Shown in pieces: positions 1-38,571 of a stretch of DNA of 40,229 nt. This DNA comes from a virus, in the IMG/VR virus record IMGVR_UViG_3300028410_000001; one strand, given 5' to 3'. The translations under genes and the position numbers were made by a program. The notes under the pieces are model-generated. The model made no database searches. It was not told the origin of the DNA and saw nothing but the letters and a program-made list of their open reading frames with translations. Every line of letters starts with the position of its first letter. The stretch's first letter is position 1.

Positions 1-127
1 ACACATCCCAGGACGAATTAGACAATTAAAAAAAGATCAAAATGGATAACAAATGCGGCGTGTGCATGGAGCCTACGCAAAATGAGGGCCTTTGTGCTCT
101 TTGCCAAATAGCTAAGCGTCGTACATG
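1..127. repeat. Terminal direct repeat, copy 1 (identical to 40103-40229)
   Basis: acacatcccaggacgaattagacaatt... through ...gctaagcgtcgtacatg is repeated verbatim at the window end. Confidence 0.95.
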
Positions 128-1533: not shown

Positions 1534-1556
1534 CCAGCGGGCGACCGCACAAAACC
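1534..1556 (+). promoter_or_regulatory. Early-region repeat motif, copy 1: CCAGCGGGCGACCGCACAAAACC
   Basis: Begins right after stop codon 1531-1533 and ends 7 nt before ATG 1564. Contains GCGG-GCGA-CCGC, a 4-bp stem with a GNRA-type loop. Confidence 0.6.
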
Positions 1557-2674: not shown

Positions 2675-2696
2675 CCAGCGGGCAACCGCACAAACC
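2675..2696 (+). promoter_or_regulatory. Early-region repeat motif, copy 3: CCAGCGGGCAACCGCACAAACC
   Basis: Starts directly after the stop codon that ends at 2674 and ends 8 nt before ATG 2705. The loop variant GCAA is still GNRA. Confidence 0.6.
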
Positions 2697-3055: not shown

Positions 3056-3073
3056 ACCACCACCGCTCCCTAA

Positions 3074-3110
3074 GCCCTGCCAGCCACTCGCGCTGGCAGG
3101 GCTTCCTTTT
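3074..3110 (+). terminator. Rho-independent terminator
   Basis: 10-bp perfect stem gccctgccag / ctggcagggc, 9-nt loop, then ttcctttt. Confidence 0.7.
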
Positions 3111-3170
3111 CTGCATCAACGTCCTTCTACCGCCAGGCGCAGGGTGGCCACCTTGCAGAAAAATATAAAC

Positions 3171-3599
3171 GTGCGCAAAATCCTACTCCTGAACCTTTCC
3201 CGAATCTTCGATTCCCCTTTCTGGCAGGGTGCGCTTTCGATCATGACCGGGTGGGTGCTCTCATTCCTCGCTCCGCTCTGGCCGTTCCTGGTGTTGATGT
3301 TTGCGTTGGTGCTGGCGGACCTGTATTCTGGTGTGAAGGCAGCACGACGGCGCAAGGAAATAATTACGTCGAAGGGGTTTCGCAGAACTGTGGAAAAGAT
3401 CACGATGTACACCCTGGCCATCATGCTGGCGCATGGCATGAGCGTGGTCTTTCTCCCATCTTTCGATCTGGCTTGGCTGCCTGCTTTCGCCATTTGTGTG
3501 GCCGAGATCAAAAGTAACTTCGAGAACATCTACAGCATCACGGGCGTCGACGTGGGCGAAGAGGTGATGGAACTCCTGAAGAAAAAAATAAGGAAGTAA
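3171..3599 (+). CDS. Holin (phage_holin_4 / LL-H-like family)
   Basis: Multiple hydrophobic segments. LVLADLYSGVKAARRRKEIITSKGFRRTVEKITMYTLAIMLAH resembles the D-x-x-(S/T)-G ... S-K-G ... K signature of that family. Start is GTG 3171 or ATG 3243; the track start at 2994 crosses the terminator. Confidence 0.55.
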   Translation: MRKILLLNLSRIFDSPFWQGALSIMTGWVLSFLAPLWPFLVLMFALVLADLYSGVKAARRRKEIITSKGFRRTVEKITMYTLAIMLAHGMSVVFLPSFDLAWLPAFAICVAEIKSNFENIYSITGVDVGEEVMELLKKKIRK

Positions 3600-4198
3600 T
3601 GGATGCGCTGACCCAGTACATTACCACGACAGCAGAGACATGGACGATTGAGTTCGTCCAGGATAGCATCTCGAAGCTGCGCGCGCGAAAGTCAGAAGTG
3701 ACAGGCGATCTGGTGCGTAGCCTGATCGGTGCCGTACTGCCAGCAGCAGGGGAGGCTGCGGCAACCATCGCCATCCAGTTCGACAGCTCCGGCCGATTCA
3801 TCGACATGAGACGCATGAAACCGCCCGCTGGGGGACGCGAATACGTCGAGGAAATAATGATCTGGCTGGAGCGCAAGGGACTGGCAGAGAAGTTTATCCA
3901 GGGTTACCTGGAATCGAGGAAACTAATTAAGCGGCCAGAAGATGTTCTCCGCTACGTCGCTTTCGGCATCGTGAAGAAAAGGGCGAAAGGCAAGTACCGC
4001 CGAAAAGCGTGGTACAATAAATCGAAAGAGGCGCGCATTCGGGGCGTCGGTGGCCTGTACAATAGCATCGCGGCAAATATGCCCGACGAGGTGGCGCAGA
4101 TGTTGAGGGCTGGCCTAAGCACGGGGCTGGAAGATCGGGAATACAGTAGCAGCATCCGCGCCCTGCGTGGCTATGCGAAAGGGCGGGGGCGAACCTGA
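3599..4198 (+). CDS. Hypothetical virion-associated protein (possibly HK97 gp10-like tail/neck completion)
   Basis: 199-aa ORF coupled to the holin by a TAATG overlap and lying just upstream of the tape measure. The VTGDLVRSL stretch is reminiscent of gp10-family proteins; this is weak evidence. Confidence 0.5.
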   Translation: MDALTQYITTTAETWTIEFVQDSISKLRARKSEVTGDLVRSLIGAVLPAAGEAAATIAIQFDSSGRFIDMRRMKPPAGGREYVEEIMIWLERKGLAEKFIQGYLESRKLIKRPEDVLRYVAFGIVKKRAKGKYRRKAWYNKSKEARIRGVGGLYNSIAANMPDEVAQMLRAGLSTGLEDREYSSSIRALRGYAKGRGRT

Positions 4199-4213
4199 TC
4201 ACCTTGCTTTTTA

Positions 4214-4244
4214 ACGTCCTTCCTATTGCACCTGCGGCCGCGCC
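4214..4244 (+). promoter_or_regulatory. Late-block repeat motif, copy A: ACGTCCTTCCTATTGCACCTGCGGCCGCGCC
   Basis: Core TGCACCTGCGGCCGCGCC at 4227-4244, with 11 nt between it and ATG 4256. Confidence 0.6.
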
Positions 4245-4255
4245 ACCTTAGCTTC

Positions 4256-7249
4256 ATGGCGCTAACTACCGACAAGTATCAGCTAGAAGTTTCCTTCATT
4301 ACCGACCAGAGCCGCGCCCTGGCCAAAACCCTGATGGAGACGGAAAAGCTACCCAATGAGCTAAAAAAAGCACAGAAGGAAGGCAAGGGCGTCGCGGAGG
4401 TGATGGCCCGCATCGAGGCAGCAGGGAAGAAAGCGGAGGGGATTGACCTGACGAAGGTGTTGCCAGACCAACTTATCTCCAGGGCGCGGCAACTGCGCCG
4501 CATCCTCGACCAACTACCAGCAAGCGCACCCCAAGTGGCTGCGCTGGAAAAAGAATATAAGGCGATAAACGACCAGCTGGCGACGACGCGATCGCGCACG
4601 CGAGGGGTAGTGGCCGCAATGAATAAGGAAGATGGGGGCGGCTTGCTCGGCTTTTTCAAGCGTGGTCAGGTGGCCATCGTGGGCTTTGTCGCGGCCTTTA
4701 GCGGGGCGTTCGCGGTGCTCTCCCGGATTGCCACCACCTCCGCATTATTTCAGAAGTTCGAGGCGGTGCTGACCAACTCCCTGGGCAGCAAAAGCGCAGC
4801 CCAGTCTGCCCTCAACGACCTGCAGGATTTCGCAGCGAGGACCCCTTTTCAGGTGGAGGAACTAATAGGAAGCTACGTTAAGCTGGTCAATCGTGGCCTG
4901 AAACCCACGCAGCTAGAACTTACGAAGCTTGGCGACATCGCAGCCAGCCAGGGAAAAGGGTTCGACCAGCTGACTGAGGCTGTGCTCGACGCAACGACGG
5001 GCGAGTTTGAACGCCTGAAAGAATTCGGCATAAAAGGAAAGAAGGCGGGCGATGATATTGCCATCTCCTTTAAGGGCCAGACGGTGGAAATCAAGAATAC
5101 CCAGGAGGCTATCCTGCAAGCCATTGTTGGCTTTGGTGATTTGGAGGGCGTACAGGGGAGCACCGCCGCCATCAGCGCGACCCTCGGCGGGAAGATTAGC
5201 AACCTGACCGACCAGTTTACGCGCCTGCTGAAGAACCTGGGCGAGGGCTTCCTTGGCCGGATCATCGCGGGGGCAGTCGATAAGGTCAGCAAGCTGGTCG
5301 GCATGTTCGTCAATCTGACAGACAATACGAAGACGCTGAGCCAGAGCACGGCATTGCTGCAAGTAGCGTTCAATCAAGAAATAGCCACCCTGGAGCGGGG
5401 CAACATCAGCACAGAGAACCGGGCCAGACTGATCGCGCGAATCAACGATCGATACGGCGACCTGCTGCCGAACATGCTGCAAGAAACAGCGAGCCTGGGA
5501 GAGATCAAGCGAGCGCAGGAACTGGCCAATCGTGCTTTTGAAAAAAAGATAATTCTCCTGGCTGCGGAGGAAGCGTTCGTAGCAGTAAAGGAAAAGCAAA
5601 TTCAAGTCAGCCGCGAAGAGCTTCAGCTCGCCGACGAATTAACTGTCGCCTTTAAAAATGCCAACAGAGTTGCTGAACTTGCAGACATAAACCAGGTACG
5701 AAACCAGAAGTTTGCGGGCAACAACTCTTCAGAAGAAGCTGCTTCGCGCCAACTGAGCGGCGCAAGGGCAGCGGTCAAGGCAAACCAAAAACTTCAGAAA
5801 GAGCTACAAAAGGAATTTGACGAAACGACCAGAGCCGCTTTAAAGCTGGGCCTTGACCTCTTAACGCTTGGCGACCCAAGAGGCTCGGACCGAACAGTGA
5901 CGGACGGACCAGTCGGGCCTGGCAGTGGCGACCCGCTCAAAGAAGCCCTCAAAAGACTCAAAGAAAAATTCGACATCCAAAGCCAGCTCGCGGAACAGCA
6001 ACGCCTTCGTGAGGAGATCAGCGAAAGCGATTACCAGAAACGTGTACTGGAATTGCAGGCAGCGGAATACGTGCTGCAACTCCAGCTATTCAAGAAATTC
6101 AACGCCAACAAAACGCTGGCGGCAGAGGAAACGCGGACGGAATTGTTGCGCGTAGAGAAAGAGCTGAACCGCAGCGCGCCAGCGGCGGTACAGTCCATCG
6201 AAGGCGGTGAGCAAATTACCCGCGTTGATCGGCGCGGGATCAACGCGAGGCTGGACGCCCTGGCCAAGGTAGAAGAGGAGCAAGGGAAGATTACCCAGGA
6301 CGCGCGCAACGCTGACCTCATCAATGAAGACCAGTTTGCAGTTGCCAAGCTGGCCCTCAAACGATTGATTCTCAGTCAGGAAATTGAAATACTAGGGGAA
6401 GGGACCACCGCCGAGATTGCCCTGGCCAGGGAGAAAAAAGACGAGCTGGTGGCCATTGACCAGGAGCTTTTCGATAAGCGCAAAGAGCTATCCCTGCGTG
6501 AGCAGGAGCTACGCGCCGAGCTAGAGCAGCAGAAAACAGCGATTGCCACTGAGGGTCTGAGCACCCTGGAGGATCTGCTGGGCCGCGACGAAGCCGCGCG
6601 AAAGAAGAATGCGGCGGTCATCAAAGCTTTTCAGGCGGGGCAAGTCTTCGTTGCTGGCTTTGCGGAGCAGCAGCAGATAGCAGCAGCTACCGCCGCCCAG
6701 GTCGCTACCGCATCGCTGACCGTGGCCGGTCTGGCCCTGGTGCCAGGCATCATCGCGGCCGGAAAGATTCGCGCCATCTTCGCGGGCGTCCGCACCGCCG
6801 CCAACGTGGCGAAAATCGTATCGACGAAGTTCGAAAGGGGTGGAAAGGTGGGCACTTTTGGCGGCAAAAGCCATCGCGCTGGCGGCACAAAGCTGTATGG
6901 CGATGACGGAACCCTCGTCGAAGTAGAGAAAGGGGAGGACTTTTTCGTGATCAACAAGCGCAGCAGCGACATGCGCCGCCGCCTTAGTAATATGAACGTG
7001 GCAGGGGGCGGCGTTCCTTTCTTCAATAGGGGAGGGGATGTATTCAATGCACCCAACACTACGCCATCGTTGCCCGCCAGCCTGCTGGGCGGCGGGCAGG
7101 CTGACAACGCTGCCCTGCTGGAACGCATCGACCGCCTGACCGCCGTCACCGCCAACATGCAGACAAGCCTGCGCGCCACGGTCTCCCTCACAGAAATCAA
7201 CGATGGCAATGCAGACCTCGCTGAGCTGTTCGATATTTCGTCTGTTTAA
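4256..7249 (+). CDS. Tail tape measure protein
   Basis: 997 aa with long coiled-coil A/E/K/Q/L-rich segments and a hydrophobic segment VAIVGFVAAFSGAFAVL. Contains a tape-measure core-like stretch AARTPFQVEELIGSYVKLVNRGLKPT...GDIAASQGKGFDQLTEAVLDATTGEFERLKEFGIK. ATG 4256 is preferred over TTG 4226, which lies just upstream of and overlaps the motif core. Confidence 0.85.
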   Translation: MALTTDKYQLEVSFITDQSRALAKTLMETEKLPNELKKAQKEGKGVAEVMARIEAAGKKAEGIDLTKVLPDQLISRARQLRRILDQLPASAPQVAALEKEYKAINDQLATTRSRTRGVVAAMNKEDGGGLLGFFKRGQVAIVGFVAAFSGAFAVLSRIATTSALFQKFEAVLTNSLGSKSAAQSALNDLQDFAARTPFQVEELIGSYVKLVNRGLKPTQLELTKLGDIAASQGKGFDQLTEAVLDATTGEFERLKEFGIKGKKAGDDIAISFKGQTVEIKNTQEAILQAIVGFGDLEGVQGSTAAISATLGGKISNLTDQFTRLLKNLGEGFLGRIIAGAVDKVSKLVGMFVNLTDNTKTLSQSTALLQVAFNQEIATLERGNISTENRARLIARINDRYGDLLPNMLQETASLGEIKRAQELANRAFEKKIILLAAEEAFVAVKEKQIQVSREELQLADELTVAFKNANRVAELADINQVRNQKFAGNNSSEEAASRQLSGARAAVKANQKLQKELQKEFDETTRAALKLGLDLLTLGDPRGSDRTVTDGPVGPGSGDPLKEALKRLKEKFDIQSQLAEQQRLREEISESDYQKRVLELQAAEYVLQLQLFKKFNANKTLAAEETRTELLRVEKELNRSAPAAVQSIEGGEQITRVDRRGINARLDALAKVEEEQGKITQDARNADLINEDQFAVAKLALKRLILSQEIEILGEGTTAEIALAREKKDELVAIDQELFDKRKELSLREQELRAELEQQKTAIATEGLSTLEDLLGRDEAARKKNAAVIKAFQAGQVFVAGFAEQQQIAAATAAQVATASLTVAGLALVPGIIAAGKIRAIFAGVRTAANVAKIVSTKFERGGKVGTFGGKSHRAGGTKLYGDDGTLVEVEKGEDFFVINKRSSDMRRRLSNMNVAGGGVPFFNRGGDVFNAPNTTPSLPASLLGGGQADNAALLERIDRLTAVTANMQTSLRATVSLTEINDGNADLAELFDISSV

Positions 7250-7736: not shown

Positions 7737-7754
7737 ATTACGATGCCCGAATTA

Positions 7755-7790
7755 AGCCCCGCCACGATCAACCGTGGCGGGGCTTTTCTT
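7755..7790 (+). terminator. Rho-independent terminator
   Basis: 12-bp perfect stem agccccgccacg / cgtggcggggct, 6-nt loop, then ttttctttg. Confidence 0.8.
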
Positions 7791-7799
7791 TGCCCATTA

Positions 7800-7830
7800 A
7801 CGTCCTTCCCTTGCACCTGCGGCCGCGCCC
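7800..7830 (+). promoter_or_regulatory. Late-block repeat motif, copy B: ACGTCCTTCCCTTGCACCTGCGGCCGCGCCC
   Basis: Core at 7812-7829, immediately after the terminator, with 60 nt between it and ATG 7890. Confidence 0.6.
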
Positions 7831-7889
7831 ATATTGTGGTTCATTACGATTCAATTACCTGAACCGTGTAACCCACAATACCCCCATTC

Positions 7890-12843: not shown

Positions 12844-13605
12844 ATGAAACAGATTACACTGCCAGTTTCCGGCCTGACTTGGGCGGTCATGCGTCACCGA
12901 TATGGACCCGGCGTTATCCGCCTGCATCGAAATGATCTGCGCAGGCGAGAGCTGAGACACGTTGGCCCTACCGATATCCACCTTGAGCGGAAACAGTATG
13001 CCCTCACCCACGCCGTGACGATCGAAGTCAGTAGCCAGGAATACGACCACTTGGCAGGTCGCTTGCCTGAAGTAGGGTTCTATCTCTACGCCCAGGACAA
13101 AAACAGGATGTCGGCATTCGTCTGGTCGCAGGTCACGGCCGGGCTCCCTGCTCTCGCTGCGCTGAAAAACTATTACCTGCTACGCGGGATTACTGACGAC
13201 GAGCACGACATCGAGACCGCAGAACGACAATGGAAGCGGTGGCGAAAAGAATATGAAAAAGAACGGGTACCAAATACCCCGGATAATGTCCCCCGTTTGG
13301 TACCCGTTCTTTTGTCGGAGCGTCAAGCGGAAGTATTGGCTGCCAGGTTAGTCAGCCTAGCAAAGGTGGTTTGCACTGGAATGGACCCGCGATATCTTCA
13401 AGCTATCCCTATTTGGGTTTTTTGCGACTTCACGACGATGACACACCAAGAGGTTGCGAACAAGTTTAAAAGATGGCGACCCAAGGTAACAACAAGTGCA
13501 AGGCGATTCAGGGATTACCTTTCGCACCATTCTGAGCTTCGAATACTCGCCAGCTACTGCCTGAAGACGACGCTTGCCAAGCCAACGCCCTCGGCTGCGT
13601 CCTAA
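12844..13605 (+). CDS. Basic R/W-rich protein with an HTH-like C-terminal part; not obviously structural
   Basis: ATG 12844 (MKQITLPV...). LSERQAEVLAARLV ... MTHQEVANKFKRWRPKVTTSARRFRDYL loosely resembles sigma region-4 / LuxR-type HTH. Confidence 0.45.
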   Translation: MKQITLPVSGLTWAVMRHRYGPGVIRLHRNDLRRRELRHVGPTDIHLERKQYALTHAVTIEVSSQEYDHLAGRLPEVGFYLYAQDKNRMSAFVWSQVTAGLPALAALKNYYLLRGITDDEHDIETAERQWKRWRKEYEKERVPNTPDNVPRLVPVLLSERQAEVLAARLVSLAKVVCTGMDPRYLQAIPIWVFCDFTTMTHQEVANKFKRWRPKVTTSARRFRDYLSHHSELRILASYCLKTTLAKPTPSAAS

Positions 13606-13637: not shown

Positions 13638-14372
13638 GTGTCATTTTCTATCCCCAACATTGAGCGATATTTCGGAGCCAGCTTTGCGGGCTTGCAGCCG
13701 ATCGTCAAGGTCGTCGTGCCTGACGATGTGCTGAGCTTCAACGATGCTAATGCAGAGGCTGGCGTCACAGTGAAGCAGGGCAAGCAGATATACACGCTCA
13801 AGGTGGAGCCGCGCAGCGGTGTAGCGCAGGAGCAATTGCGGGGCGGGGTGCATGGTGATCATCACGAGCGTTCGCTCGCCTTCACCTTCCGACACAATCG
13901 CCAGGAGCTGGTGGACCTGCGCGCCAGCTGCATGAATCAGCGCGTACACGTGATCTTCACAGACGCGAATTGCACCACCTACCTATATACGAACCTGCGC
14001 CTTCGCGCTGCGGATGCGACGAGCGAGACGGCAGTCACGTCGCTACGCTTCGAGGGTAGCAGCGTGCAACCCACCAGCTTCGTGCAGGGCGTTATTTTGC
14101 CGCCCGCGCCCAGCCCCGAAATAGACGAAGACAATACGGGCATCGACGAAACGCCCGACGGTATCGACACCTCCGGCGGCATCGATGGCGGTGCCGCAGA
14201 CGTAGACCTGGGCGGGCCTACTGATGGCGGAGACGGCGGGGACGGCGGCGGCGATGGGGGCGACGGCGATGCGGGCACGGACGTTGGCCGGCTGCTTCAG
14301 CCCTCGACTGGCGACTACTTCACGCTGACCGTCACGGCTTGTGAAGGCCTACTACTCACGAAAATTACCTAA
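13638..14372 (+). CDS. Hypothetical tail-associated protein with a Gly/Asp-rich C-terminal linker
   Basis: 244-aa ORF with a GTG start; contains the GGDGGDGGGDGGDGDAG tract. Confidence 0.5.
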   Translation: MSFSIPNIERYFGASFAGLQPIVKVVVPDDVLSFNDANAEAGVTVKQGKQIYTLKVEPRSGVAQEQLRGGVHGDHHERSLAFTFRHNRQELVDLRASCMNQRVHVIFTDANCTTYLYTNLRLRAADATSETAVTSLRFEGSSVQPTSFVQGVILPPAPSPEIDEDNTGIDETPDGIDTSGGIDGGAADVDLGGPTDGGDGGDGGGDGGDGDAGTDVGRLLQPSTGDYFTLTVTACEGLLLTKIT

Positions 14373-14375
14373 CGC

Positions 14376-14687
14376 ATGTCTCTAATTATCCCACTGAAGA
14401 CGGGTACCCGCGCGGACATCATCGCGATTGGTGTGGCGGGCACGGCTTGCCCTTCGGCCCTCTACCGCGCGACTGATCAGAAGGCGGTATGGTTCGGCGC
14501 GGAGGATGGAAGCCTGATTGGGCCCTTCATTACAGAGGCAAACGCGGGGCCTCAATTCTATGCCAGCTACGCGAACGATACCGAGGCGGGCAACAACAAC
14601 GTGCCGCTCGGTGGCATATACTTTCTTACCCTCACAAACACCTATGGCGGCATTGAGGGTACTCCGAAAAAACGAACTGAACAATAA
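14376..14687 (+). CDS. Hypothetical small tail-fibre-associated protein
   Basis: 103-aa ORF whose stop overlaps the fibre ATG (TAATGA). Confidence 0.5.
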
Positions 14688-17600
14688 TGAAGCAATTACT
14701 TTCTCTGCTCTTTCTCTGCCTTCTTTGCACCGGCGTCCGCGCCCAAAACGCTGCCCCCCTGAAGGGGACGGGCGTACTGCACTATAAGGACATCCCGACC
14801 CACGTGCCCGATACGCGATCCCCACAGGTGGTCTTCGTCGTCGATTCGCTGAAGTGGTACGTGTACGACGCTGACGCTACCGCCTGGCTCCAGCTTTCTG
14901 GTGGCGGTGGGCAAGGGATTGACGGGAAAAGCCTGCTCAATGGGCAAGGCGCACCGGCCAACAGCCTGGGCAATAATGGCGACTTCTATATTGACACTGA
15001 TGCCGACCGCATCTACGGCCCCAAGGGCGGCGGCGTGTGGGGAAACGGGACACTGATTACTGGCCCGGCCGGCCCGACTGGGCCAGCGGGCGCGGGCGTC
15101 GTGATTGTTGGAACTGTGGCCAACGCTGCCAGCCTGCCGAGCCCCTACAATGGCAACATCGGCGACATGTTCATTACAGAAGATAACGGTGGGGGCTATG
15201 TATATAATGGTAGTACCTACACTTACGTGGGTCCGATACGGGGGCCCCAGGGTGAAACGGGAGAAACAGGATTGACCGGCGGGGTCGGCCAGACGGGAAC
15301 GGCAGGAGCTGCTGCGACCGTTGCGGCGGGTACGACGACGACGGGGGCCGCTGGCACGAATGCCACCGTCACGAACGTGGGGACGCCACAAAACCGAACG
15401 CTTAATTTCGTTATCCCGCGCGGGGATACGGGGGCGACTGGTAGTACGGGTGCGACTGGTAATACAGGGGCGACCGGCCCGGCGGGTGCTGATGGTGCGA
15501 CTGGGAATACGGGGGCGGCTGGTGCTGATGGTGCGACTGGGAATACGGGGGCGACTGGTAATACTGGCCCGACCGGCGCGGCTGGTGCTGCCGCGACAGT
15601 AGCGGCAGGGACGACAACGACGGGTGCAGCGGGCACCAACGCCACCGTCACGAACGCGGGAACGCCACAAAACAGAACGCTTAATTTCGTTATTCCCAGA
15701 GGGGATACAGGGGCGACTGGTAATACAGGGGCGACTGGATCGACCGGCCCGGCGGGTGCTGATGGCCCGGCTGGTGCTGATGGTGCGACTGGGAATACGG
15801 GGGCGACTGGTAATACTGGCCCGACCGGCGCGGCTGGTGCTGCCGCGACAGTATCGGCAGGGACGACAACGACGGGTGCAGCGGGCACCAACGCCACCGT
15901 CACGAACGCGGGGACGCAGCAAAACCGAACGCTTAATTTCGTTATTCCGCGCGGGGATACGGGGGCGACGGGTAGTACGGGGGCGGCTGGTAATACAGGG
16001 GCGACCGGGGCGACCGGCCCGGCTGGTGCTGATGGCGCGGCGGGTGATGATGGCGCGACTGGCAATACTGGACCGACCGGCGCGACTGGTGCTGCGGCAA
16101 CAGTAGCGGCAGGGACGACAACGACGGGGGCCGCTGGCACTAATGCCACCGTCTCAAACGCGGGGACGCCACAAAACCAAACGTTTAATTTCGTTATTCC
16201 GCGTGGGGCGACTGGATTGACTGGCGATACGGGCCCGGCTGGTGACGATAGTACGGACGATCAGACGTTAGCTGAGGTTCTTTCGCAGGGGAACACCATG
16301 AACACAAGCTTGAATACCGATGGAAACTTCATTCAAAACGGCACCGGCCAACACGGGCTGACCATGCTAGGAAACGGCGGGATGCTTTTGCGCGGAAATG
16401 GCGTTAGCAGCATCGATGGGGTTAATTTTATAGATTTCAGATATACCGCAACGCATAAGCTCAATACGATTGGAGCTTTGCGCGGTTCCAGCAATTTTGT
16501 TTTTGCCTACGCTGTTGAGCCAAATCCCCTGGTAAATGAGCAATACATTTCAAGTGCAGATAATATCGCGTGGCCACGAACTTCTTTTGAAACAGGTGAC
16601 GCGCTAATTTGGCGCGGGCTACCCGCAACTGTCGCTGCAATGGGGTCAGTCGTTGCGTTGCCAGAATTATTCAAAGTTGAAACAGACGGACAAGCTTTCT
16701 TTCCTAGTGCGCAAGCGGCAGGAGGTGGAAGCGACGGGGTACTGTATGGTAATTCTGCTGGAAGACTTCAAAAGTATTCTAATGGAGTTCCGCAAAACCT
16801 TATCAACAGAACCAACCTTGACGCTGACCTGCTAGACGGTCAGCATGGGAGCTATTACTATTCGCCTGCTAATTTGCCCGCCACAGACGGCAACGGCATA
16901 TACTCCACCTCCGCAACCATACCAGTCGGCCGCGTTGCCTCAGCAGCCAGCCACACGGGCGGGACGGTCGGCAGGACAAAGCTGCATTTTGCCGAGGCGG
17001 GCGCATCCAGCAGCCGACACACAGGGTTTCAATCCTTTGCGCAGGCGTCCGACACAGGCGTAAAGCTGGATCATCGCGTGAACAACGTGGGCGCAACCCT
17101 TTCGTCAAGCCTTGAGTTGTCCAACCTGGTGGACAAAAGCAGCTTTTCAAATGATACCTGGTATTATAATAATGCAGCTAATACAGTACTTAGGGGATTC
17201 AGATTTGTAGGCGATAAGCCTGCGATACGGGTCGGGTCGGCTAGTTTCATTGATATGCCAGCCGCGTTGCCAACGCACGACAACAGCGCGTGGATAGTGG
17301 ACGCAAATGGATCGGGCGGTAAGTACAAACCAGTCAGCTACCGAGCGGCAAAGGATCGGGAGGTGACCCTCACAAACACAAGTTTTGCGACTGATGCTGA
17401 ATTGCAATTAAATGTGCCAGTAGGTGTTTACGACGTGCGCTGCAAGCTTATTTTTCAGGGCGAAAACACAAACAGCGAACTAATGTACCGCGTCACAGCA
17501 GCAGCAACAACAGGCAGGGTAAACGCCTATACGTCGAAGGGGGAAAGCGTGTTGACGCAAGCCTTTACTGGCAACACGTTTGGGGAACTGTACAGGACTG

Positions 17601-17764
17601 AAAATGCGGCGGGCGTTCACATGATTATTATCGAGGGAACATTACAGGTATTTGGAGCATCAACCCTTGTGGCGGTTCAGCGCGGCGTGCTAGATGCTGA
17701 CGATTCTGTCACCCTTGAGCAGGGTTCGTTTATCGAATTAACCCTTAATACCGTTGGCCTTTAA
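14687..17764 (+). CDS. Collagen-like repeat tail fibre protein
   Basis: 1025 aa with long G-X-Y runs ([37 protein letters not shown]...). Four repeats of [38 protein letters not shown], then a non-repetitive C-terminal domain. The N-terminal boundary is uncertain. Confidence 0.8.
14719..14744 (+). promoter_or_regulatory. Late-block repeat motif, copy E, lying inside the annotated 5-prime end of the fibre ORF
   Basis: CCTTCTTTGCACCGGCGTCCGCGCCC; core at 14726-14743. A 22-nt run ctttgcaccggcgtccgcgccc (14723-14744) is identical to 34761-34782. Confidence 0.55.
15308..16250 (+). repeat. Four tandem repeats of about 250-280 nt within the fibre gene
   Basis: Units start near 15308, 15587, 15839 and 16091; each opens gctgc.gcgac.gt..cggc.gg.acgac.acgacggg. 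Confidence 0.85.
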
Positions 17765-17776
17765 AATCAAAACCCT

Positions 17777-18115
17777 ATGAAGCCTGGATACCTCAATTAT
17801 GGCGAACACCCTCGCGGCGATACCATAGACGCCAAGACATTCACGCTGACCACCACCAGCGCAGGCACAACTGCGCCTATCAACCTGACCGGCGCGGACG
17901 TAAGAATGACGTTCAGCCTTTCAGGTGTAAAAGTCGCTTTCACCACAGGTGGCGGTATTACGCTGACCGATGCCGCAGCGGGTATTTTCAGGAAAGATAA
18001 GTTCTCCTTGCCCCACGTGGGGGTGTGGAGCTTCGACCTTCAGGTTATCCTGAATGGAGATACGAAAACGTACATTGTTGGACAGATTGAAATAATTAAA
18101 GACATAACCGCATGA
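17777..18115 (+). CDS. Small beta-rich fibre/baseplate-associated protein
   Basis: 112-aa ORF between the two fibre genes, overlapping the next gene by 4 nt. Confidence 0.55.
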   Translation: MKPGYLNYGEHPRGDTIDAKTFTLTTTSAGTTAPINLTGADVRMTFSLSGVKVAFTTGGGITLTDAAAGIFRKDKFSLPHVGVWSFDLQVILNGDTKTYIVGQIEIIKDITA

Positions 18116-19893
18116 GTGCTGTAAATGTAACGATACAAGAAACGATCGAGCAGGTCACAGTAGCCGTAACGGAGACGGTCGAAACTGTGACTATTGAGGT
18201 GACGACTGGTGCTGATGGTGCGACTGGTGCGACTGGTGCTGATGGCCCGGCTGGTGCTGATGGTGCTGATGGCCCGGCTGGTGCTGATGGTGCGACTGGT
18301 GCTGATGGCCCGGCTGGTGCTGATGGTGCGGCAGCGACCGTGTCGGTCGGAACCACAACGACAGGCGAAGCGGGAACGGATGCCAGCGTGACCGAAACGG
18401 GGGACGCGCAAAACAAGACGTTCGACTTTCTTATCCCGCGCGGCGCAGCGGGTGCTGCTGGCTCGGCTACAGTATCAATAGGAACAACAACGACTGGAGC
18501 TGCTGGCTCTGCTGCTAGTGTTGTTAATTCAGGGACTGGGACGGAAGCAATACTTAATTTTACATTACCAGCCGGTCAAGAAGGAAGCGTGGGCACAGAA
18601 TTGACAACTCCAGAAGTCCTGCTTAATGACATTCGTAGAGCCGATACCGATAACGCTGCTTATACTAATCTAAGTACTTTTGTTTGGATTCCAGCAACAA
18701 ACAATACCGTCGATGGGTACATTACAAAAATATCAATCGAGGCAAATAACGCTTTGGCAGGAAGGAAGATGAATTTATTCCTTTTCACACGAGATGAGGC
18801 AACTAATAACTTTACTACTCAATATATTGGAACTGACGATTTTCCAGCTGAACTTGACGGGCTTAACGAAGCTACCTTACCCACTAGAATAGCAATTAAG
18901 GAAACACAAATGTTTGGCGTTTCGCTAAGCACAACTGTTGCGTCAAGCGCAGTACGTCTGTATTCTGGAGGCGGTAGTTCGTCAGACGAGGGAGGAACTG
19001 GGCACTTTCAGAATATAACAAGGCTAACCCTATTGGTGCCGACATCAATGTTGTTTCTGTCGAACCGGGGATTCTCCGCGAAGGCTTATGTTGAAGAAGC
19101 AGTAGCTTCTTCGCGCATAAACAATCCTTCAGGGCTAAGCGTGATTGCGGCAGTCGATAGCTTAGTTGGGAGCACAGTTTTTAATGAAAGAGATTGGTTT
19201 TTTGGCAAAAAAATACTTTATGTCGGCACGTCTATTCCCGCTGGGGGCACTACCCAGGAAGGTAGATACCCTGACGTCATGGGGCGCATATTAGGGGCAG
19301 ATGTGGAGAACGTAGCAATAGGAGGCTCAAGAGTGATATTTACTAATTTAGCGAGCGACAATTTCAACGTAAATGCGTTGATGGGGACGATTGCGGAAAA
19401 AGAAGCTTTGTTTTCAGATAACTCAACAGCGGTCATTGCAAACGCGGTAGCTGCTTCGTATGAAACGCTAATAATTGGGAAGACGTATGATTACCTAGTT
19501 ATCGACCATTACGTCAATGATCGCAGTCAAATACGATTTGGTTCCATGGGAACCATATCAGACACAACAGCAGCAACTTTTTATGGAGCGTTCAACGTAC
19601 TGCTAGCATCTGTATATGCCGACAAACCGTCCGCAAAAGTGTTGTTGGTTGCCTGCCCTAACATCTACACAACTGCAAATGCGCAAATAGATCAGGCTGG
19701 ACAAGATGCAATTACAGCCCTCAAGGAAATCGCTTTAAAGTATCATTTGCCGTTTCTGAATCAGGCCGAGGAAGGGTATGTAAACACAAGCAATTTCAGC
19801 GTTTACAATTCAGATGGCACGCACCCAACAGACGACGCAGAAAGAGCAAGGCGGGGCTACGCAGTTGCTCAATTCGTTAAAAGACATCCTTAA
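18112..19893 (+). CDS. Second collagen-like tail fibre with a C-terminal SGNH/GDSL-type esterase-like domain
   Basis: [19 protein letters not shown]... G-X-Y run and a TVSVGTTTTGEAGTDASVT...FLIPRG module. The C-terminus has KKILYVGTSIPAGG (block I-like, Ser) and SDGTHPTD (block V D-x-x-H). Confidence 0.7.
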   Translation: MSAVNVTIQETIEQVTVAVTETVETVTIEVTTGADGATGATGADGPAGADGADGPAGADGATGADGPAGADGAAATVSVGTTTTGEAGTDASVTETGDAQNKTFDFLIPRGAAGAAGSATVSIGTTTTGAAGSAASVVNSGTGTEAILNFTLPAGQEGSVGTELTTPEVLLNDIRRADTDNAAYTNLSTFVWIPATNNTVDGYITKISIEANNALAGRKMNLFLFTRDEATNNFTTQYIGTDDFPAELDGLNEATLPTRIAIKETQMFGVSLSTTVASSAVRLYSGGGSSSDEGGTGHFQNITRLTLLVPTSMLFLSNRGFSAKAYVEEAVASSRINNPSGLSVIAAVDSLVGSTVFNERDWFFGKKILYVGTSIPAGGTTQEGRYPDVMGRILGADVENVAIGGSRVIFTNLASDNFNVNALMGTIAEKEALFSDNSTAVIANAVAASYETLIIGKTYDYLVIDHYVNDRSQIRFGSMGTISDTTAATFYGAFNVLLASVYADKPSAKVLLVACPNIYTTANAQIDQAGQDAITALKEIALKYHLPFLNQAEEGYVNTSNFSVYNSDGTHPTDDAERARRGYAVAQFVKRHP

Positions 19894-20857: not shown

Positions 20858-20880
20858 GCGTCCTTCTTATGCAGCCCCCC
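20858..20880 (+). promoter_or_regulatory. Degenerate copy of the upstream half of the late-block motif (GCGTCCTTCTTATGCAGCCCCCC)
   Basis: Resembles ACGTCCTTCCTATTGCACC of copy A and lies 19 nt upstream of ATG 20900. Confidence 0.3.
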
Positions 20881-20899: not shown

Positions 20900-21742
20900 A
20901 TGAACAAGGCCCAGGGCCACGCCCCTAATTTATCGTTTCCTTTCGCCATGCTGCCCGCAGGACCGCTCCTCGTGGAGTCCGATTACCTGCTGAGCCAGCT
21001 ACTGAGCGAGGCGGCAAGACTGGCGCAAGGCGGGCATCCCCTAAAATCATCCGCCGAAACCGTGACCGGCCACCCCCTGGTAATGGCTGGTTACGGCGGG
21101 AACGGGAAACCGATGACCGCCGCTCGCGTCCGCCTTGCTGGCCTGATGAGAGACGAGAAAGCAGAATACCAGGTAGAAGCCCTTCGCGCTGCCTACGCTG
21201 ACCGTGGAATTTCCGGTATTCTGCTGGAAGTGAACACTGGCGGCGGAGCCGTGACGGCTGCCGAAATGGTCCGAGATGCCGTCAGCAGCAGGAACAAGCC
21301 AGTCGTCGTGACGACTAATTATATGGCAAGTGGCGGCGTACTCGCCACGCTAGGAGCTGACGAGCTGATCGCAATGAGTGAGTCGGCCCTGATCGGCAGC
21401 ATCGGTGTCGTTCAGCAGATCGCCACCTTCATGCGTGACCTCCTGAATCGCTATTTTGTATTCGAGTACGCCGATACCAGCCCCGAAAAGAACGCCAGTA
21501 CGCGGGAGTTCCTGCGCACTGGCGACACCTCCGTTTTCAAGCCCCTGCTCAACGATCTCGACGCCATATTCATGGCTGCCGTCACCGCTGCGCGCCCGCT
21601 TGACCCCAAAACAGCCGCCGACACCCTGAAAGGTGGCACCTGGCTGGCCGTCGAAGCGCAGCAGCGCGGGCTGATCGATGGGATTGGCGGCACCAACTAT
21701 TCTCTTTCACGCCTCGCCGAGGCAATCAATAATTATCAATGA
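20900..21742 (+). CDS. Prohead protease, S49 (SppA/ClpP-fold) family
   Basis: GILLEVNTGGGAVTAAEMVRDAVSSRNKPVVVTTNYMASGGVLATLGADELIAMSESALIGSIGV matches the S49 pattern (SPGG-like, KPV, aaSGG, GSIGV). ATG 20900 is inside track ORF 20798-21742. Confidence 0.75.
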   Translation: MNKAQGHAPNLSFPFAMLPAGPLLVESDYLLSQLLSEAARLAQGGHPLKSSAETVTGHPLVMAGYGGNGKPMTAARVRLAGLMRDEKAEYQVEALRAAYADRGISGILLEVNTGGGAVTAAEMVRDAVSSRNKPVVVTTNYMASGGVLATLGADELIAMSESALIGSIGVVQQIATFMRDLLNRYFVFEYADTSPEKNASTREFLRTGDTSVFKPLLNDLDAIFMAAVTAARPLDPKTAADTLKGGTWLAVEAQQRGLIDGIGGTNYSLSRLAEAINNYQ

Positions 21743-22194
21743 TCACCACCCTATTGGCGAAGGCCCGCGCTCATTTCGGGCTCGCCCCCAACGCTTCTCT
21801 TTCTCAGCTCGACGCGGCGATTGACGCCGACACCCTCCCTGTAGTTCCCGCGACTGATGCAGATCAGGGCGCGGACGCAGGTGCAAAGAAGGTGGATGTG
21901 CCAGCCGCCGAAACCGCACCAGGAACCGCCCTTACCCGCGAAGATGTTGCCACCATGATTGCCACAGCCAGCGCAGAAATGTCGCAAGCCATTAGCGATC
22001 TCAACGCCGCCAACGCCGAGCTGACGCAGGCCAATACAGCACTATCTGACCGACTCAGCGCAGTCGAAGGCCAAGACGCTGCCAGCCACACGAGTGGGAA
22101 GACCGACGCCGTCGACCTGACCACGCCCTCGCCAATTTACGCGCAGAACCCCGCGAACCTTCGCGCCGCTGCGCGCCTGAAAGGTCTAGCCTAA
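21739..22194 (+). CDS. Probable scaffolding protein
   Basis: 151-aa Ala-rich helical ORF between the protease and the capsid gene. Confidence 0.45.
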   Translation: MITTLLAKARAHFGLAPNASLSQLDAAIDADTLPVVPATDADQGADAGAKKVDVPAAETAPGTALTREDVATMIATASAEMSQAISDLNAANAELTQANTALSDRLSAVEGQDAASHTSGKTDAVDLTTPSPIYAQNPANLRAAARLKGLA

Positions 22195-25093: not shown

Positions 25094-25396
25094 TTACTTT
25101 CCCAGGCCGAAGGCCTTTACGGACGCCGAAATATGATGTGGGACTTCTCCCCCATCATACCCATCTAAGATGGATATGATGATCAATTTACACACCGATT
25201 GCGTGTGTTTTTTCGTAAAAGAGTCCGGGAATGGCCCGGATAGAGTGGGGTCAAACATTCTCGAGCCGTAGCCCATTCCGCGAGCGTAGGTAACCTTTAC
25301 CTTTAAGGCTACTGTACCAAACACGATTGTGTTTAGCTCTTCGCACGGCGCGAAGGGAGTGATTATTTTATTAAACAGAGTTTGAATTGGGTTCAT
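25094..25396 (-). CDS. Hypothetical accessory protein
   Basis: 100-aa ORF in an AT-richer segment, separated by 1 nt from the upstream 69-aa ORF. Confidence 0.45.
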   Translation of the reverse strand: MNPIQTLFNKIITPFAPCEELNTIVFGTVALKVKVTYARGMGYGSRMFDPTLSGPFPDSFTKKHTQSVCKLIIISILDGYDGGEVPHHISASVKAFGLGK

Positions 25397-25397
25397 T

Positions 25398-25607: not shown

Positions 25608-25706
25608 TGTCTCGGAATTGTGTGTTTCTCGTCAGCGATATTGCTTTCGATACTACAAAGTATAGTCCATTCAGACTAACCGCGCAACTATTCAATACTT
25701 TATTTA

Positions 25707-25768: not shown

Positions 25769-25805
25769 GGGTAATGGTGAGCCATGTCGGGCTTTTTGCT
25801 TTTGC

Positions 25806-25886
25806 CCACCTTCCCTGCACCTGCGTCCGCGCCCCCCTACCCTTACCACGTCCGCGCCTAAACCCTTTACGTCCTTCCTGCGTCAC
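25806..25886 (+). promoter_or_regulatory. Late-block repeat motif, copy C, plus two partial copies
   Basis: Core TGCACCTGCGTCCGCGCC at 25816-25833. CACGTCCGCGCCTAAACC at 25848-25865 matches the 3-prime half of copy D. ACGTCCTTCCTGCGTCAC at 25869-25886 matches the 5-prime half of copies A and B. Confidence 0.55.
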
Positions 25887-34190: not shown

Positions 34191-34195
34191 TATTG

Positions 34196-34329: not shown

Positions 34330-34752
34330 ATGTACAATCTCATCACGCTCATCGGCCACCTTGGCCAGGCACCTGAAACAAAAAAGATCTCCATGGGGAG
34401 TTCGGTAACAAGGCTTTCCCTTGCGACCAGCATAAGCTGGAAGAACGCTGAGGGCGTAAAGTCAGAGAAAACAGAGTGGCACAGCATCGTGCTGTGGAAC
34501 AAGCTGGGCCAAGTGGCTCAGGACTACCTGGAAAAGGGTAGCAAAGTCCTAATCGTAGGTCGGGTAGAATACCGGAAGGTTGAGAACAACGGGGAAACTC
34601 GCTATTACACTGATGTAATCGCATCGGAAATGAGGCTACTCAGCACTAAGTCCACCCCTACCAACAGCTCCCCTGAAAATAACCTCCCCAAAGGCCAACC
34701 TAAGTCACTAACCGCCTTGCGGCCAGACGACAAAGAAGACCTGCCTTTCTAA
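34330..34752 (+). CDS. ssb: Single-stranded DNA-binding protein
   Basis: OB-fold signature NLITLIGHLGQAPE...TEWHSIVLWNKLGQVAQDYLEKGSKVLIVGRVEYRKVE..GETRYYTDVIA, followed by a disordered tail ending in the acidic tip DKEDLPF. Confidence 0.9.
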   Translation: MYNLITLIGHLGQAPETKKISMGSSVTRLSLATSISWKNAEGVKSEKTEWHSIVLWNKLGQVAQDYLEKGSKVLIVGRVEYRKVENNGETRYYTDVIASEMRLLSTKSTPTNSSPENNLPKGQPKSLTALRPDDKEDLPF

Positions 34753-34760
34753 CCCCCCCC

Positions 34761-34788
34761 CTTTGCACCGGCGTCCGCGCCCTAAACC
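34761..34788 (+). promoter_or_regulatory. Late-block repeat motif, copy D: CTTTGCACCGGCGTCCGCGCCCTAAACC
   Basis: Core at 34764-34781, with 15 nt between it and ATG 34797. Confidence 0.55.
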
Positions 34789-34796
34789 AATTCTCA

Positions 34797-37653: not shown

Positions 37654-38571
37654 ATGATTACAAGTACAAATATAGGTAGCAACGCCCGGATGATGGGCAT
37701 CGTGTTCAACGCCTTCATCATTTTGTCCATTCTAGTCAACGCTGCGCTGACCGCGCAGTTTGGATGGGAACACAGCGGGGGCGTGTTCGGCGCGCTCATC
37801 ATGCTCCTCTTTTTCGATGGTGCGGCCATCGCCTGGTACCTCGCCCGGAAAAAAGAAGGACTCAGCAGCATGCAGCGAGGAATCGCGAAGCTACTTTCAA
37901 TCGGCACGATTATCGCCAGTACGCTGGTGAGTGTCATCCAGGTACTGCTGAACACTACCCTGGTCGCGTTCAGCACGAACGCCCTGGAAACGATCGGGAA
38001 AGGTGGCCTGATCTTGGTCACCGTAGCGGCGGCTGCCAATTTCCTCGCCCTGTTTGCCTTCCAGTACTTCAGCATCGAAGAACAGAAAGCCGAGCAGCTC
38101 GAAGAACAGAAAGCCCGCGCCAACGACGAGCGTCAGGACATGATAAACGAGGCCCACACGAAGGCCCACACCAAGGCCCGGGCCCGCCTAATGATGCAGA
38201 CGGACGCAATCGCGGAGCGCATGGCCAACGATGCCGAACGCGAGTTCTACGCAGCAATGGACTGCCTGGACATGTACGAAGCACCAGCCGCGCGACCTAA
38301 TAAGGGCGCGGGCGCGGGTGCAAAGAAGAAGGGAAAGAAAGCAAAGAAGGCTACCCCTACCCCGCCCGTAAAAGCGGCAAACTCTGCCTGTGACTGTGGC
38401 ATGCCGATAGGAACATCCGAAGGAGAGTGTGATTATGAACTCGGCGGTAACGGCTGCATGATCGACCTCCGGGCCGAGCAAGAAAAAGCCGCCGCCCGCC
38501 CTATTGATTTCGAGAGTGAGCCGCTCGAACTCCCTGGCTTCGGTGCCGTAACCGACCCGCCGGGAAAGTAG
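37654..38571 (+). CDS. Membrane protein: about 4 TM segments, a coiled coil, a Lys-rich tract and a Cys cluster
   Basis: 305 aa with a hydrophobic N-terminal half. Followed by EEQKAEQLEEQKARANDERQ, then KKKGKKAKKATP, then CDCGMPIGTSEGECDYELGGNGC. Confidence 0.55.
   Translation: MITSTNIGSNARMMGIVFNAFIILSILVNAALTAQFGWEHSGGVFGALIMLLFFDGAAIAWYLARKKEGLSSMQRGIAKLLSIGTIIASTLVSVIQVLLNTTLVAFSTNALETIGKGGLILVTVAAAANFLALFAFQYFSIEEQKAEQLEEQKARANDERQDMINEAHTKAHTKARARLMMQTDAIAERMANDAEREFYAAMDCLDMYEAPAARPNKGAGAGAKKKGKKAKKATPTPPVKAANSACDCGMPIGTSEGECDYELGGNGCMIDLRAEQEKAAARPIDFESEPLELPGFGAVTDPPGK

What the first reader, a model, noticed from the sequence alone, without database searches (positions are those of the whole stretch)
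4214..4244. 18-nt GC-rich core TGCACC[T/G]GCG[G/T]CCGCGCC repeated five times ahead of gene blocks: candidate phage-specific promoter or regulator site
Seen directly: the core occurs on the plus strand at 4227-4244, 7812-7829, 14726-14743, 25816-25833 and 34764-34781. Copies A and B also share the upstream half TTAACGTCCTTCC. Partial copies lie at 20858-20880, 25848-25865 and 25869-25886. The copies sit just upstream of the tape measure, the 7890 tail block, the fibre, the protease/capsid block, the portal/terminase block and ORF 34797. Copy B directly follows a strong terminator. The motif does not resemble the Bacteroidota TTG / TAnnTTTG promoter, nor sigma70. Inference: it could be a promoter for a phage-directed transcription factor or sigma, an activator site, or an RNA processing signal. 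Five matches to an 18-mer core that varies at only two positions, all in the same orientation, cannot be chance.
Basis: partly seen in the sequence, partly recalled or inferred. Interest (0 to 1): 0.7.

Follow-up and report, generated by a model that had tools for sequence, protein, structure and literature searches.

The report
Host genome repeat carried by phage
The repeated 18-base motif is real, but it is not a phage invention: it is the core of a short repeat found throughout the chromosomes of Lewinella-type marine bacteria (the likely hosts), and this phage and its relatives keep unusually perfect, evenly spaced copies of it.

Summary
The core TGCACC[T/G]GCG[G/T]CCGCGCC is real. The five plus-strand copies are exact. 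Three of the seven copies lie inside genes. The motif is not phage-specific. A scan of 185,579 species' genomes hit mostly Lewinella/Neolewinella and other Saprospirales (Bacteroidota). There it is the core of a ~45-nt unit (TTGCTC box, pyrimidine tract, core, C-AAAA). I estimate about one unit per 8-9 kb, on both strands. Density is equal in tandem, divergent and convergent spacers. Copies also sit inside genes, in signal peptides (...LLCTCVRA|Q) and in Gly/Ala or Pro/Ala linkers. Neighbouring copies alternate in orientation and often form head-to-head doublets. Capsid relatives at 46-80% identity keep the core; relatives at ≤41% identity with lower GC lack it. Phage copies are purer than host copies (6/7 exact vs 17%), evenly spaced, and sense-oriented when intergenic. 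Canonical Bacteroidota -7 boxes sit elsewhere in the phage. Best reading: a DNA word of the host family, REP/BIME-like in layout and uptake-signal-like in distribution, probably bound by a conserved host protein and maintained by the phage. It is not a phage-directed promoter. Its function is unproven and no description was found in the searched literature.

The parts
4204..4252 (+). Unit A: TTGCTT box, TTAACGTCCTTCC tract and exact core at 4227-4244. It fills the 57-nt gap between ORF 3599-4198 and the tape-measure start codon at 4256.
   Evidence: E=2.4e-6; tape measure
7785..7837 (+). Unit B: exact core at 7812-7829 with the same ACGTCCTTCC tract. It starts right after the 13-bp-stem terminator at 7754-7785 and lies 60 nt before ATG 7890.
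   Evidence: E=1.9e-8
14697..14751 (+). Unit C: core at 14726-14743 (GGCGTCC variant). It is in frame inside ORF 14687-17764, a collagen-repeat fibre-like protein, as codons 14-19 (CTGVRA) of a signal-peptide-like N-terminus.
   Evidence: (E=6.8e-8); same usage in host proteins
21860..21912 (-). It lies inside the scaffold-like ORF 21739-22194 and reads GADAGA on the sense strand. It is an island of invariant bases in a hypervariable linker across 7 phages.
   Evidence: (E=7.8e-8)
25789..25841 (+). Unit E: exact core at 25816-25833. It follows two terminator-like hairpins (25741-25768, 25779-25794) at the edge of a variable moron (accessory-gene) region. It lies 75 nt before the probable start (ATG 25909) of the small ORF ahead of the portal-like gene.
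   Evidence: (E=1.9e-6)
34737..34789 (+). Unit F: core at 34764-34781. It lies 12 nt after the SSB stop codon and 15 nt before ATG 34797. The 70%-identity relative L004 has a same-length 10/18 version at this site.
   Evidence: (E=1.3e-6)
38297..38347 (-). The relative L004 carries the exact core at the equivalent site.
   Evidence: (E=4.4e-4)
25869..25878 (+). Second box ACGTCCTTCC without a canonical core. It also occurs at 3119-3128 (1 mismatch, after terminator 3072-3104) and as GCGTCCTTCT at about 20860. The arrangement 'core, then ~10 nt, then CGTCCTTCC' upstream of the small ORF is kept in relatives L007, L018, L185 and L186.

Best explanation
SHOWN. The 18-mer is the near-invariant core of a ~45-nt interspersed repeat unit of Lewinellaceae/Saprospirales chromosomes: (T)TGCTC box at about -21, pyrimidine tract aAACCtTTCCcT, the core, then C-AAAA. 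I estimate roughly one unit per 8-9 kb. Units occur on both strands and are enriched 8-9-fold in spacers of every type. They are also fitted into coding DNA by codon choice: signal peptides ...LLCTCVRA|Q, and Gly/Ala or Pro/Ala stretches. Neighbouring copies alternate in orientation, often as head-to-head doublets 26-110 nt apart. The window is the complete circular genome of a temperate tailed phage and carries seven units. Its relatives carry them only as far as they share this GC range. Unrelated phage contigs carry them too.

INFERRED. The word acts as double-stranded DNA, as the binding site of a host protein conserved across the family. In architecture it resembles REP/BIME elements. In distribution it resembles DNA uptake signal sequences. 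The phage keeps near-perfect, evenly spaced copies because recognition by that host factor helps the phage or prophage. The number and quality of copies are selected more than their exact positions. The sense orientation of all intergenic phage copies suggests one further constraint or use linked to transcription direction. It is not a promoter for a phage-directed factor.
For: Host origin:
The remaining rows are single hits in high-GC genomes (taxonomy).
- 190 copies with ≤3 mismatches lie in 676 kb, against about 2 in a reversed-sequence control.

Independence from gene context:
- About 1.1 copies per kb in tandem, divergent and convergent spacers alike.
- Neighbouring genes are unrelated housekeeping genes.
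- No hairpin association.

Codon-level embedding:
- 16 signal peptides use the core in frame.
- Internal copies fall in natural G/A- or P/A-rich segments.

Orientation and persistence:
- Neighbour orientations: -+ 47, +- 30, ++ 9, -- 9. The alternation does not depend on gene direction. There are 21 tight doublets, mostly between tandem genes.
- Orthologous spacers keep the element between species.

Phage side:
- The host-derived profile finds exactly seven units in the window.
- The core is kept in capsid relatives at 46-80% identity and is absent in relatives at ≤41% identity with GC 0.44-0.51.
- A degenerate copy persists at the scaffold-gene site at 62-65% identity.
- The 12 bases GGACGCAGGTGC are invariant in 7 phages while the flanks are about 50% identical with indels.
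- 6/7 phage copies are exact, against 17% of non-seed host copies (P=1.4e-4). Total density is host-like: 7 observed against 5.6 expected.
- Spacing is more even than random (P=0.003-0.006).
- At one site a relative carries a same-length 10/18 version, which indicates in situ point changes rather than block insertion.
- Unrelated phage contigs (L005/L022, L040) also carry units.
Against: - No binding protein is identified, and nothing was tested experimentally.
- An 18-19 bp invariant core is much longer than known uptake signals or Chi sites.
- The head-to-head doublets and recurrent sub-variants (G10T, G13C) could instead reflect copy-and-paste spread.
- The orientation bias of intergenic phage copies (8 sense : 1 antisense) is not predicted by a purely strand-symmetric DNA function.
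- Host densities come from 8-kb windows that were chosen because they contain a copy. They pool several species and include about 6 non-Lewinellaceae loci.
- The host assignment rests on the shared word, the GC content and one distant Saprospiraceae MAG capsid homologue. It does not rest on a prophage found in a named genome (one search found none in the sample).
Confidence: 0.5

Rival explanations
1. DNA uptake signal, or another 'self-DNA' tag, in the strict sense. A competence or DNA-processing receptor of Lewinellaceae prefers DNA carrying the word. Biased uptake plus recombination then drives the word into every permissive site, prophages included.
For: The word occurs genome-wide on both strands and is shared across genera. 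It shows position-specific 'dialect' variation. It is embedded at codon level in permissive protein segments. It is enriched in spacers regardless of context. It is kept at orthologous sites. One phage site differs from its relative by point changes only. Spacing in the phage is even.
Against: Natural competence is not known for this family (my knowledge). The core is 18 bp, against 9-12 bp for DUS/USS. Alternating orientation and 26-110-nt head-to-head doublets are not features of USS. Uptake bias gives no obvious reason for phage copies to be purer than host copies.
Confidence: 0.2
2. A selfish REPIN/MITE-like miniature element. The head-to-head doublet is the mobile unit and single copies are decayed halves. 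The prophage was colonised while it sat in the chromosome.
For: There are 21 tight inverted doublets with similar inner arms. Recurrent sub-variants suggest copying. Most copies are intergenic. An orthologous spacer holds a doublet in one species and a single copy in another.
Against: The unit is not itself a palindrome. No target-site duplications were seen. About 40% of copies lie in coding DNA, in natural G/A- or P/A-rich segments without an inserted block. All phage copies are single. The scaffold-gene copy is conserved in place down to 62% capsid identity. A relative has a same-length degenerate version rather than an empty site. No RAYT-like gene was found in 0.68 Mb, although that test was weak.
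Confidence: 0.2
3. An expression signal used by the phage through a host factor: a promoter for an alternative host sigma, or a 5'-UTR, antitermination or processing element at the start of late gene blocks.
For: All four intergenic window copies are sense-oriented. Two of them follow strong terminators with no canonical -7 box before the next gene. In phages overall, intergenic copies are 8 sense: 1 antisense. The ACGTCCTTCC box recurs at five block starts. The upstream box TGCTCyTTtAAc loosely resembles the rrn/lambda boxA sequence TGCTCTTTAACA: 18/158 copies are within 3 mismatches, against about 1 in control windows.
Against: Host copies are equally dense in convergent spacers. They favour the antisense orientation between tandem genes (20:10). 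They lie inside genes on both strands and precede unrelated genes. Three of the seven phage copies are intragenic, two of them antisense. No phage sigma or transcription factor was found.
Confidence: 0.15
4. Portable homology for recombination. Repeats shared by phage and host act as crossover points for module or moron exchange.
For: Unit E sits exactly at the edge of a region that differs among 95%-identical relatives. One relative has a 748-nt lipoprotein gene inserted there. In L186 and L185 the minus-strand moron is flanked by inverted core-like arms with 95% and 85% complementarity.
Against: The breakpoint coincides with a terminator, not with the core. The window has no left-hand partner. 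18-26 bp is short for homologous exchange. Long-range host pairs show no extra arm similarity.
Confidence: 0.1
5. A Chi- or KOPS-like polar word that guards DNA ends from a host helicase-nuclease.
For: Phage copies are pure and evenly spaced, and density is about one per 6 kb.
Against: Neighbouring host copies alternate in orientation instead of being co-oriented. The strong spacer enrichment and the 18-bp length are unlike Chi.
Confidence: 0.05

Closest known systems
REP/BIME elements and REPINs of Proteobacteria
   Same: Hundreds of short GC-rich copies, mostly intergenic. Copies alternate in orientation. Inverted doublets of about 100 nt sit between genes of the same operon direction. The elements persist at orthologous spacers.
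   Different: The unit is not an imperfect palindrome. About 40% of copies are inside genes. The same 18-mer is shared across genera. Phages carry it. No RAYT transposase was found.
DNA uptake signal sequences (Neisseria DUS, Pasteurellaceae USS)
   Same: A family-wide word on both strands. It is fitted into permissive reading frames and enriched in spacers. It has an extended consensus with an A-tract, position-specific dialects and even spacing.
   Different: The core is twice as long. Density is about 8-fold lower. Doublets are head-to-head with 26-110-nt spacers rather than terminator hairpins. Competence and biased uptake are untested in this family.
Phage-borne multi-copy sites (Cluster A mycobacteriophage stoperators, Cluster K start-associated sequences, T7-type promoters)
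   Same: Several near-identical copies of 13-23 nt in one phage genome, some immediately upstream of start codons or gene blocks.
   Different: Those sites are confined to the phage and read by a phage protein or by the ribosome. This word belongs to the host chromosome and also sits antisense inside phage genes.

Membership tests
   Abundant in Lewinellaceae/Saprospirales chromosomes. Present in unrelated phage contigs.
   Only 4 of 7 copies are intergenic. Two are antisense inside genes.
   No such domain found in 40 ORFs. Many ORFs have no match at all.
Bacteroidota housekeeping promoter (-33 TTG / -7 TAnnTTTG) | TAnnTTTG box about 19 nt downstream of a TTG | tested here: not met
   The unit consensus has no such box. 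Canonical boxes lie elsewhere, at 30367, 34183 and 34215.
REP/BIME/REPIN | Each unit is an imperfect palindrome (stem-loop) | tested here: not met
   No excess folding around single copies. The core contains only a GCGGCCGC palindrome, and that palindrome is lost in the common T variant.
REP/BIME/REPIN | Inverted doublets with characteristic spacing | tested here: met
   21 head-to-head pairs, 10 of them with 56-86-nt gaps.
REP/BIME/REPIN | Essentially extragenic | tested here: not met
   About 40% of copies lie in predicted coding DNA, including clear signal peptides and linkers.
REP/BIME/REPIN | Cognate RAYT transposase flanked by the repeats | tested here: inconclusive
   tblastn with an E. 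coli RAYT sequence recalled from memory gave nothing below E=0.9 in 0.68 Mb. Whole genomes were not searched.
MITE | Terminal inverted repeats plus target-site duplication | tested here: not met
   The doublets have inverted ends, but no direct duplications flank them. Most copies are single.
DNA uptake signal sequence (DUS/USS) | Family-wide over-represented word, both orientations about equal | tested here: met
   99 forward and 91 reverse copies in 676 kb from several genera.
DNA uptake signal sequence (DUS/USS) | Copies inside genes occupy permissive segments and preferred frames | tested here: met
   Copies read CTCVRA, (P)APAAAP or GA[A/D]AGA.
DNA uptake signal sequence (DUS/USS) | Sequence-biased DNA uptake by a competence receptor | not testable with these tools
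   Needs uptake assays and a competence gene inventory of complete genomes.
Chi / KOPS-type polar word | Neighbouring copies co-oriented (replichore-wide strand bias) | tested here: not met
   Neighbours alternate, 77 alternating to 18 same-orientation, also at kb distances. A local GC-skew test was confounded by gene strand.
Known RNA families (Rfam 15) | Match at gathering score | tested here: not met
   No hit in the window or in 18 host loci.

The most novel reading that the evidence does not exclude
Lewinellaceae possess a previously undescribed 18-bp 'self-DNA' word, the first uptake-signal-like or genome-tagging sequence in Bacteroidota, read by a conserved DNA-binding protein. Selection or drive for the word is strong enough to fix the codons of dozens of signal peptides (LLCTCVRA|Q). 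Their phages are under selection to carry perfect, evenly spaced copies so that they are treated as host DNA.
Probability: 0.2. Interest if true: 0.85.

Novelty: new variant of a known kind. Interest (0 to 1): 0.6.

Why it matters
If the word is read by a host protein, it would be a new example of a genome-wide DNA signature shaping both proteomes and phage genomes. In the proteome it fixes identical codons in unrelated signal peptides and linkers. It comes from a phylum where no uptake signal, Chi-like or REP-type system has been described, to my knowledge and in the searched literature.

In practice it is a strong host-prediction marker for uncultured viruses. An exact 18-mer links metagenomic phage contigs to Lewinellaceae.

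It also warns against calling multi-copy phage motifs 'phage promoters' without first checking the host genome.

Tried and rejected
- Megablast of 25 kb of the window against GenBank phages: no match.
- Rfam on the window and on 18 host loci: nothing.
- Literature searches for the sequence, for Lewinella phage, for Saprospiraceae REP and for Bacteroidetes uptake sequences: nothing relevant.
- RAYT search: negative but weak.
- Prophage search: the window does not match the 0.68 Mb host sample by blastn or tblastx.
- Terminator association in hosts: no excess of hairpins next to single copies.
- Regulon idea: the genes downstream of sense copies are unrelated housekeeping genes.
- Divergent-promoter idea for the doublets: most doublets sit between tandem genes.
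- Invertible-promoter idea: I read the printed spacers of several tight doublets (L056, L068, L126, L134) by eye and saw no -7 box. The one box I saw (L095) lies between divergent genes.
- boxA/nut resemblance of the upstream box: real but modest, and inconsistent with the host orientation data.
- Local GC skew as a proxy for replication strand: confounded by coding-strand composition.
- Relatives from other hosts (L179, L184) show no word of their own at equivalent sites.

Full report
THE OBSERVATION

The degenerate 18-mer TGCACCKGCGKCCGCGCC has six exact matches in the window. None is expected by chance. The sixth is on the minus strand at 21868-21885. A 2-mismatch copy lies on the minus strand at 38305-38322.

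Every copy is preceded by a pyrimidine run (ccttctt / ccttccc). Several have a TTGCTy box about 21 nt upstream. A profile HMM built only from host-genome copies recovers exactly these seven units, with E from 2e-8 to 4e-4.

The window is a complete circular genome: bases 1-127 equal 40103-40229. It belongs to a temperate tailed phage with these genes:
- tape measure, 4256-7249
- collagen-repeat fibres, 14687-19893
- endolysin, 19814
- head protease, 20798
- capsid-like gene, 22237
- large terminase, 28781
- integrase, 32056-33108 (minus strand)
- SSB, 34330
- helicase, 35848

Four units are intergenic and sense-oriented (A 4227, B 7812, E 25816, F 34764). B and E follow terminators. Three units are inside genes:
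- C (14726) is in frame as CTGVRA, at the end of a signal-peptide-like N-terminus.
- D (21868) is antisense and reads GADAGA in the scaffold-like ORF.
- G (38305) is antisense and reads GAGAGA.

WHERE ELSE THE MOTIF OCCURS

A scan of IMG/VR gave 52 loci. They fall into these groups:
- near-identical relatives
- relatives at about 70% DNA identity that keep the exact core in diverged flanks (L004, L007, L009, L018, L031)
- unrelated phage contigs (L005/L022, L040) in which the core ends a signal peptide (...LLCTCVRA|Q)
- chance hits in high-GC phages

The decisive result is the scan of one genome per species. Of the 80 rows displayed, 60 are Lewinella, Neolewinella, Lewinellaceae, Saprospiraceae or unnamed Bacteroidia MAGs. 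Many of those genomes contribute several loci. All the other rows are single hits in high-GC genomes. Neolewinella belongs to Lewinellaceae, Saprospirales, Bacteroidota.

ANATOMY IN THE HOSTS

I analysed the 95 loci with GC ≤ 0.615 (676 kb). About six of them are not Lewinellaceae, which is a caveat for all numbers below.

Unit and abundance:
- The unit is about 45 nt: a (T)TGCTC box near -21 in 46/109 copies (against 8-9 in control windows), then aAACCtTTCCcT, then the core, then C-AAAA.
- There are 190 copies with ≤3 mismatches, against about 2 in a reversed-sequence control.
- Mismatches concentrate at core positions 0, 6, 10 and 13, and the same substitutions recur: G10T 58 times and G13C 23 times.
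- Leaving out one seed copy per locus gives about 1 copy per 7-9 kb.

Position relative to genes, using a codon-usage gene caller I trained on these loci:
- About 60% of copies are intergenic, an 8-9-fold enrichment.
- Density is nearly identical in tandem, divergent and convergent spacers: 59 copies in 56 kb, 31 in 24.6 kb and 15 in 13.7 kb.
- Genes downstream of sense copies are unrelated housekeeping genes, including gyrA, gyrB, a tRNA synthetase and GMP synthase.
- No hairpin enrichment flanks single copies.

Copies inside genes:
- They use a few reading frames. 16 are signal peptides of unrelated proteins (MK..LLLLCTCVRAQ).
- The others read (P)APAAAP or GA[A/D]AGA, within naturally Gly/Ala- or Pro/Ala-rich segments.
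- This indicates codon-level accommodation of a DNA word rather than insertion of a block.

Orientation:
- Neighbouring copies alternate: -+ 47, +- 30, ++ 9, -- 9.
- 21 are tight head-to-head doublets with 26-110-nt gaps, mostly between tandem genes.
- The alternation also holds at kb distances and does not depend on gene direction.
- Orthologous spacers of different species retain the element, sometimes as a doublet in one species and a single copy in the other.

THE PHAGE SIDE

Motif-independent capsid relatives show that the word tracks the host rather than the phage lineage:
- Contigs at 46-80% capsid identity and GC 0.53-0.58 carry it.
- Contigs at ≤41% identity and GC 0.44-0.51 have none.
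- Relatives at 62-65% identity have degenerate versions.
- One distant capsid homologue comes from a Saprospiraceae MAG.

At the scaffold-gene site, the 12 bases GGACGCAGGTGC are invariant in seven phages. The surrounding linker is about 50% identical and full of indels. Selection therefore acts on the nucleotides, not on the peptide.

At the SSB site, a 70%-identity relative has a same-length 10/18 version. At site G the roles are reversed: the relative is exact and the window has 2 mismatches. This turnover by point changes suggests that the number and quality of copies matter more than their exact positions.

Further phage statistics:
- Total density matches the host estimate, 7 observed against 5.6 expected. 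The copies are much purer: 6/7 exact against 17% of non-seed host copies, P=1.4e-4.
- Spacing is more even than random: minimum gap 3541 nt, P=0.003; coefficient of variation, P=0.006. This test was chosen after seeing the data.
- Intergenic copies in phages are sense-oriented, 8 to 1. Host tandem spacers show 10 sense to 20 antisense. The phage counts are not fully independent of each other.

WHAT IT IS NOT

It is not phage-specific.

It is not the Bacteroidota housekeeping promoter. The unit has no TAnnTTTG box. Canonical boxes sit where early or switch promoters are expected, at 30367, 34183(+) and 34215(-). No phage sigma factor or regulator was detected.

The host distribution argues against a promoter, a terminator or a regulon operator. 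The evidence is equal density in all spacer types, both strands, intragenic copies and unrelated neighbouring genes.

The alternation of orientation argues against a Chi/KOPS-type polar word. There is no Rfam family and no paper.

BEST EXPLANATION AND RIVALS

Shown: this is a genomic word of the host family that its phages share and conserve.

Inferred, at about 0.5 confidence: it acts as duplex DNA bound by a conserved host protein. It is REP/BIME-like in layout and uptake-signal-like in distribution. The phage maintains perfect copies because it benefits from that recognition.

Rivals:
- a strict uptake or self-tag signal (0.2)
- a REPIN/MITE-like selfish element (0.2)
- an expression signal in the phage that works through a host factor (0.15). 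This is supported only by the sense bias, the position after terminators, the recurring ACGTCCTTCC box and a loose boxA resemblance.
- portable homology for moron exchange (0.1). Unit E borders a region that varies among 95%-identical relatives, and inverted core-like arms flank the moron in L185 and L186.
- a Chi-like word (0.05)

VERDICT

Its interpretation as a phage-specific promoter is not supported. What is there appears to be an undescribed interspersed repeat family of Lewinellaceae that is shared with their phages. Its function is unknown. It is worth following up and is immediately useful as a host marker.

Noticed in passing
window 1535-1553, 2382-2400, 2676-2694 (+): A second repeat, [C/G]AGCGGGC[G/A]ACCGCACAAA. 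It forms a 4-bp GCGG/CCGC stem with a GCGA/GCAA (GNRA-type) loop. Each copy lies 11-12 nt before an ATG of consecutive small genes. It has no match in the 0.68 Mb host sample, so unlike the 18-mer it may really be phage-specific.
   Followed up: partly
window 14687-14760: The 1025-aa collagen-repeat 'tail fibre' ORF starts with a Sec-type signal-peptide-like sequence ([19 protein letters not shown]|QN). Its ATG overlaps the previous stop codon (TAATG). A cleavable signal on a virion fibre would be odd, so it may be a secreted or surface protein. Other phage contigs (L005, L022, L040, L186) also encode proteins with the same CT[C/G]VRA|Q ending.
   Followed up: partly
host loci L053-L172 (e.g. 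L058, L084, L104, L120, L163): Unrelated Lewinellaceae secreted proteins share the signal-peptide end LLCTCVRA|Q, encoded by identical codons. A DNA-level word appears to be shaping signal peptides.
   Followed up: partly
window 31883-31949 and 33446-33628: Clusters of TTGACCC (3 copies) and its complement GGGTCAA (5 copies plus 1 forward copy) flank the integrase/excisionase-like genes as inverted arrays. They are likely integrase arm sites or repressor operators.
   Followed up: no
window 25104-25789: An AT-rich segment with two minus-strand small ORFs sits between the head-tail genes and the small ORF ahead of the portal-like gene. It is replaced or extended in 95%-identical relatives. L024 has a 748-nt insert there that encodes a lipoprotein-like 195-aa protein. 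This looks like a moron hotspot.
   Followed up: partly
L186 12288-12307 / 12927-12946; L185 12339-12358 / 13912-13931: In two relatives, the minus-strand moron at the same position is flanked by inverted arms derived from the core (95% and 85% complementary). Each pair shares its own variant of the core.
   Followed up: partly
window 1-127 and 40103-40229: An exact 127-nt terminal overlap. The window is a circularly closed 40,102-bp genome.
   Followed up: yes
window 4256-30241: Unusual module order on one strand: tape measure and tail, then fibres, then lysis, then protease/scaffold/capsid, then connectors, then the portal-like gene and terminase.
   Followed up: no
window 38918-39577: This ORF has weak, sub-threshold matches to dual-specificity/tyrosine phosphatase domains (E about 3e-4).
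   Followed up: no
window 34183-34222: Back-to-back canonical Bacteroidota -7 boxes, TATGTTTG (+) and TATTTTTG (-), lie in the spacer between the leftward regulatory genes and SSB. This is probably the lysis/lysogeny switch promoter pair.
   Followed up: no
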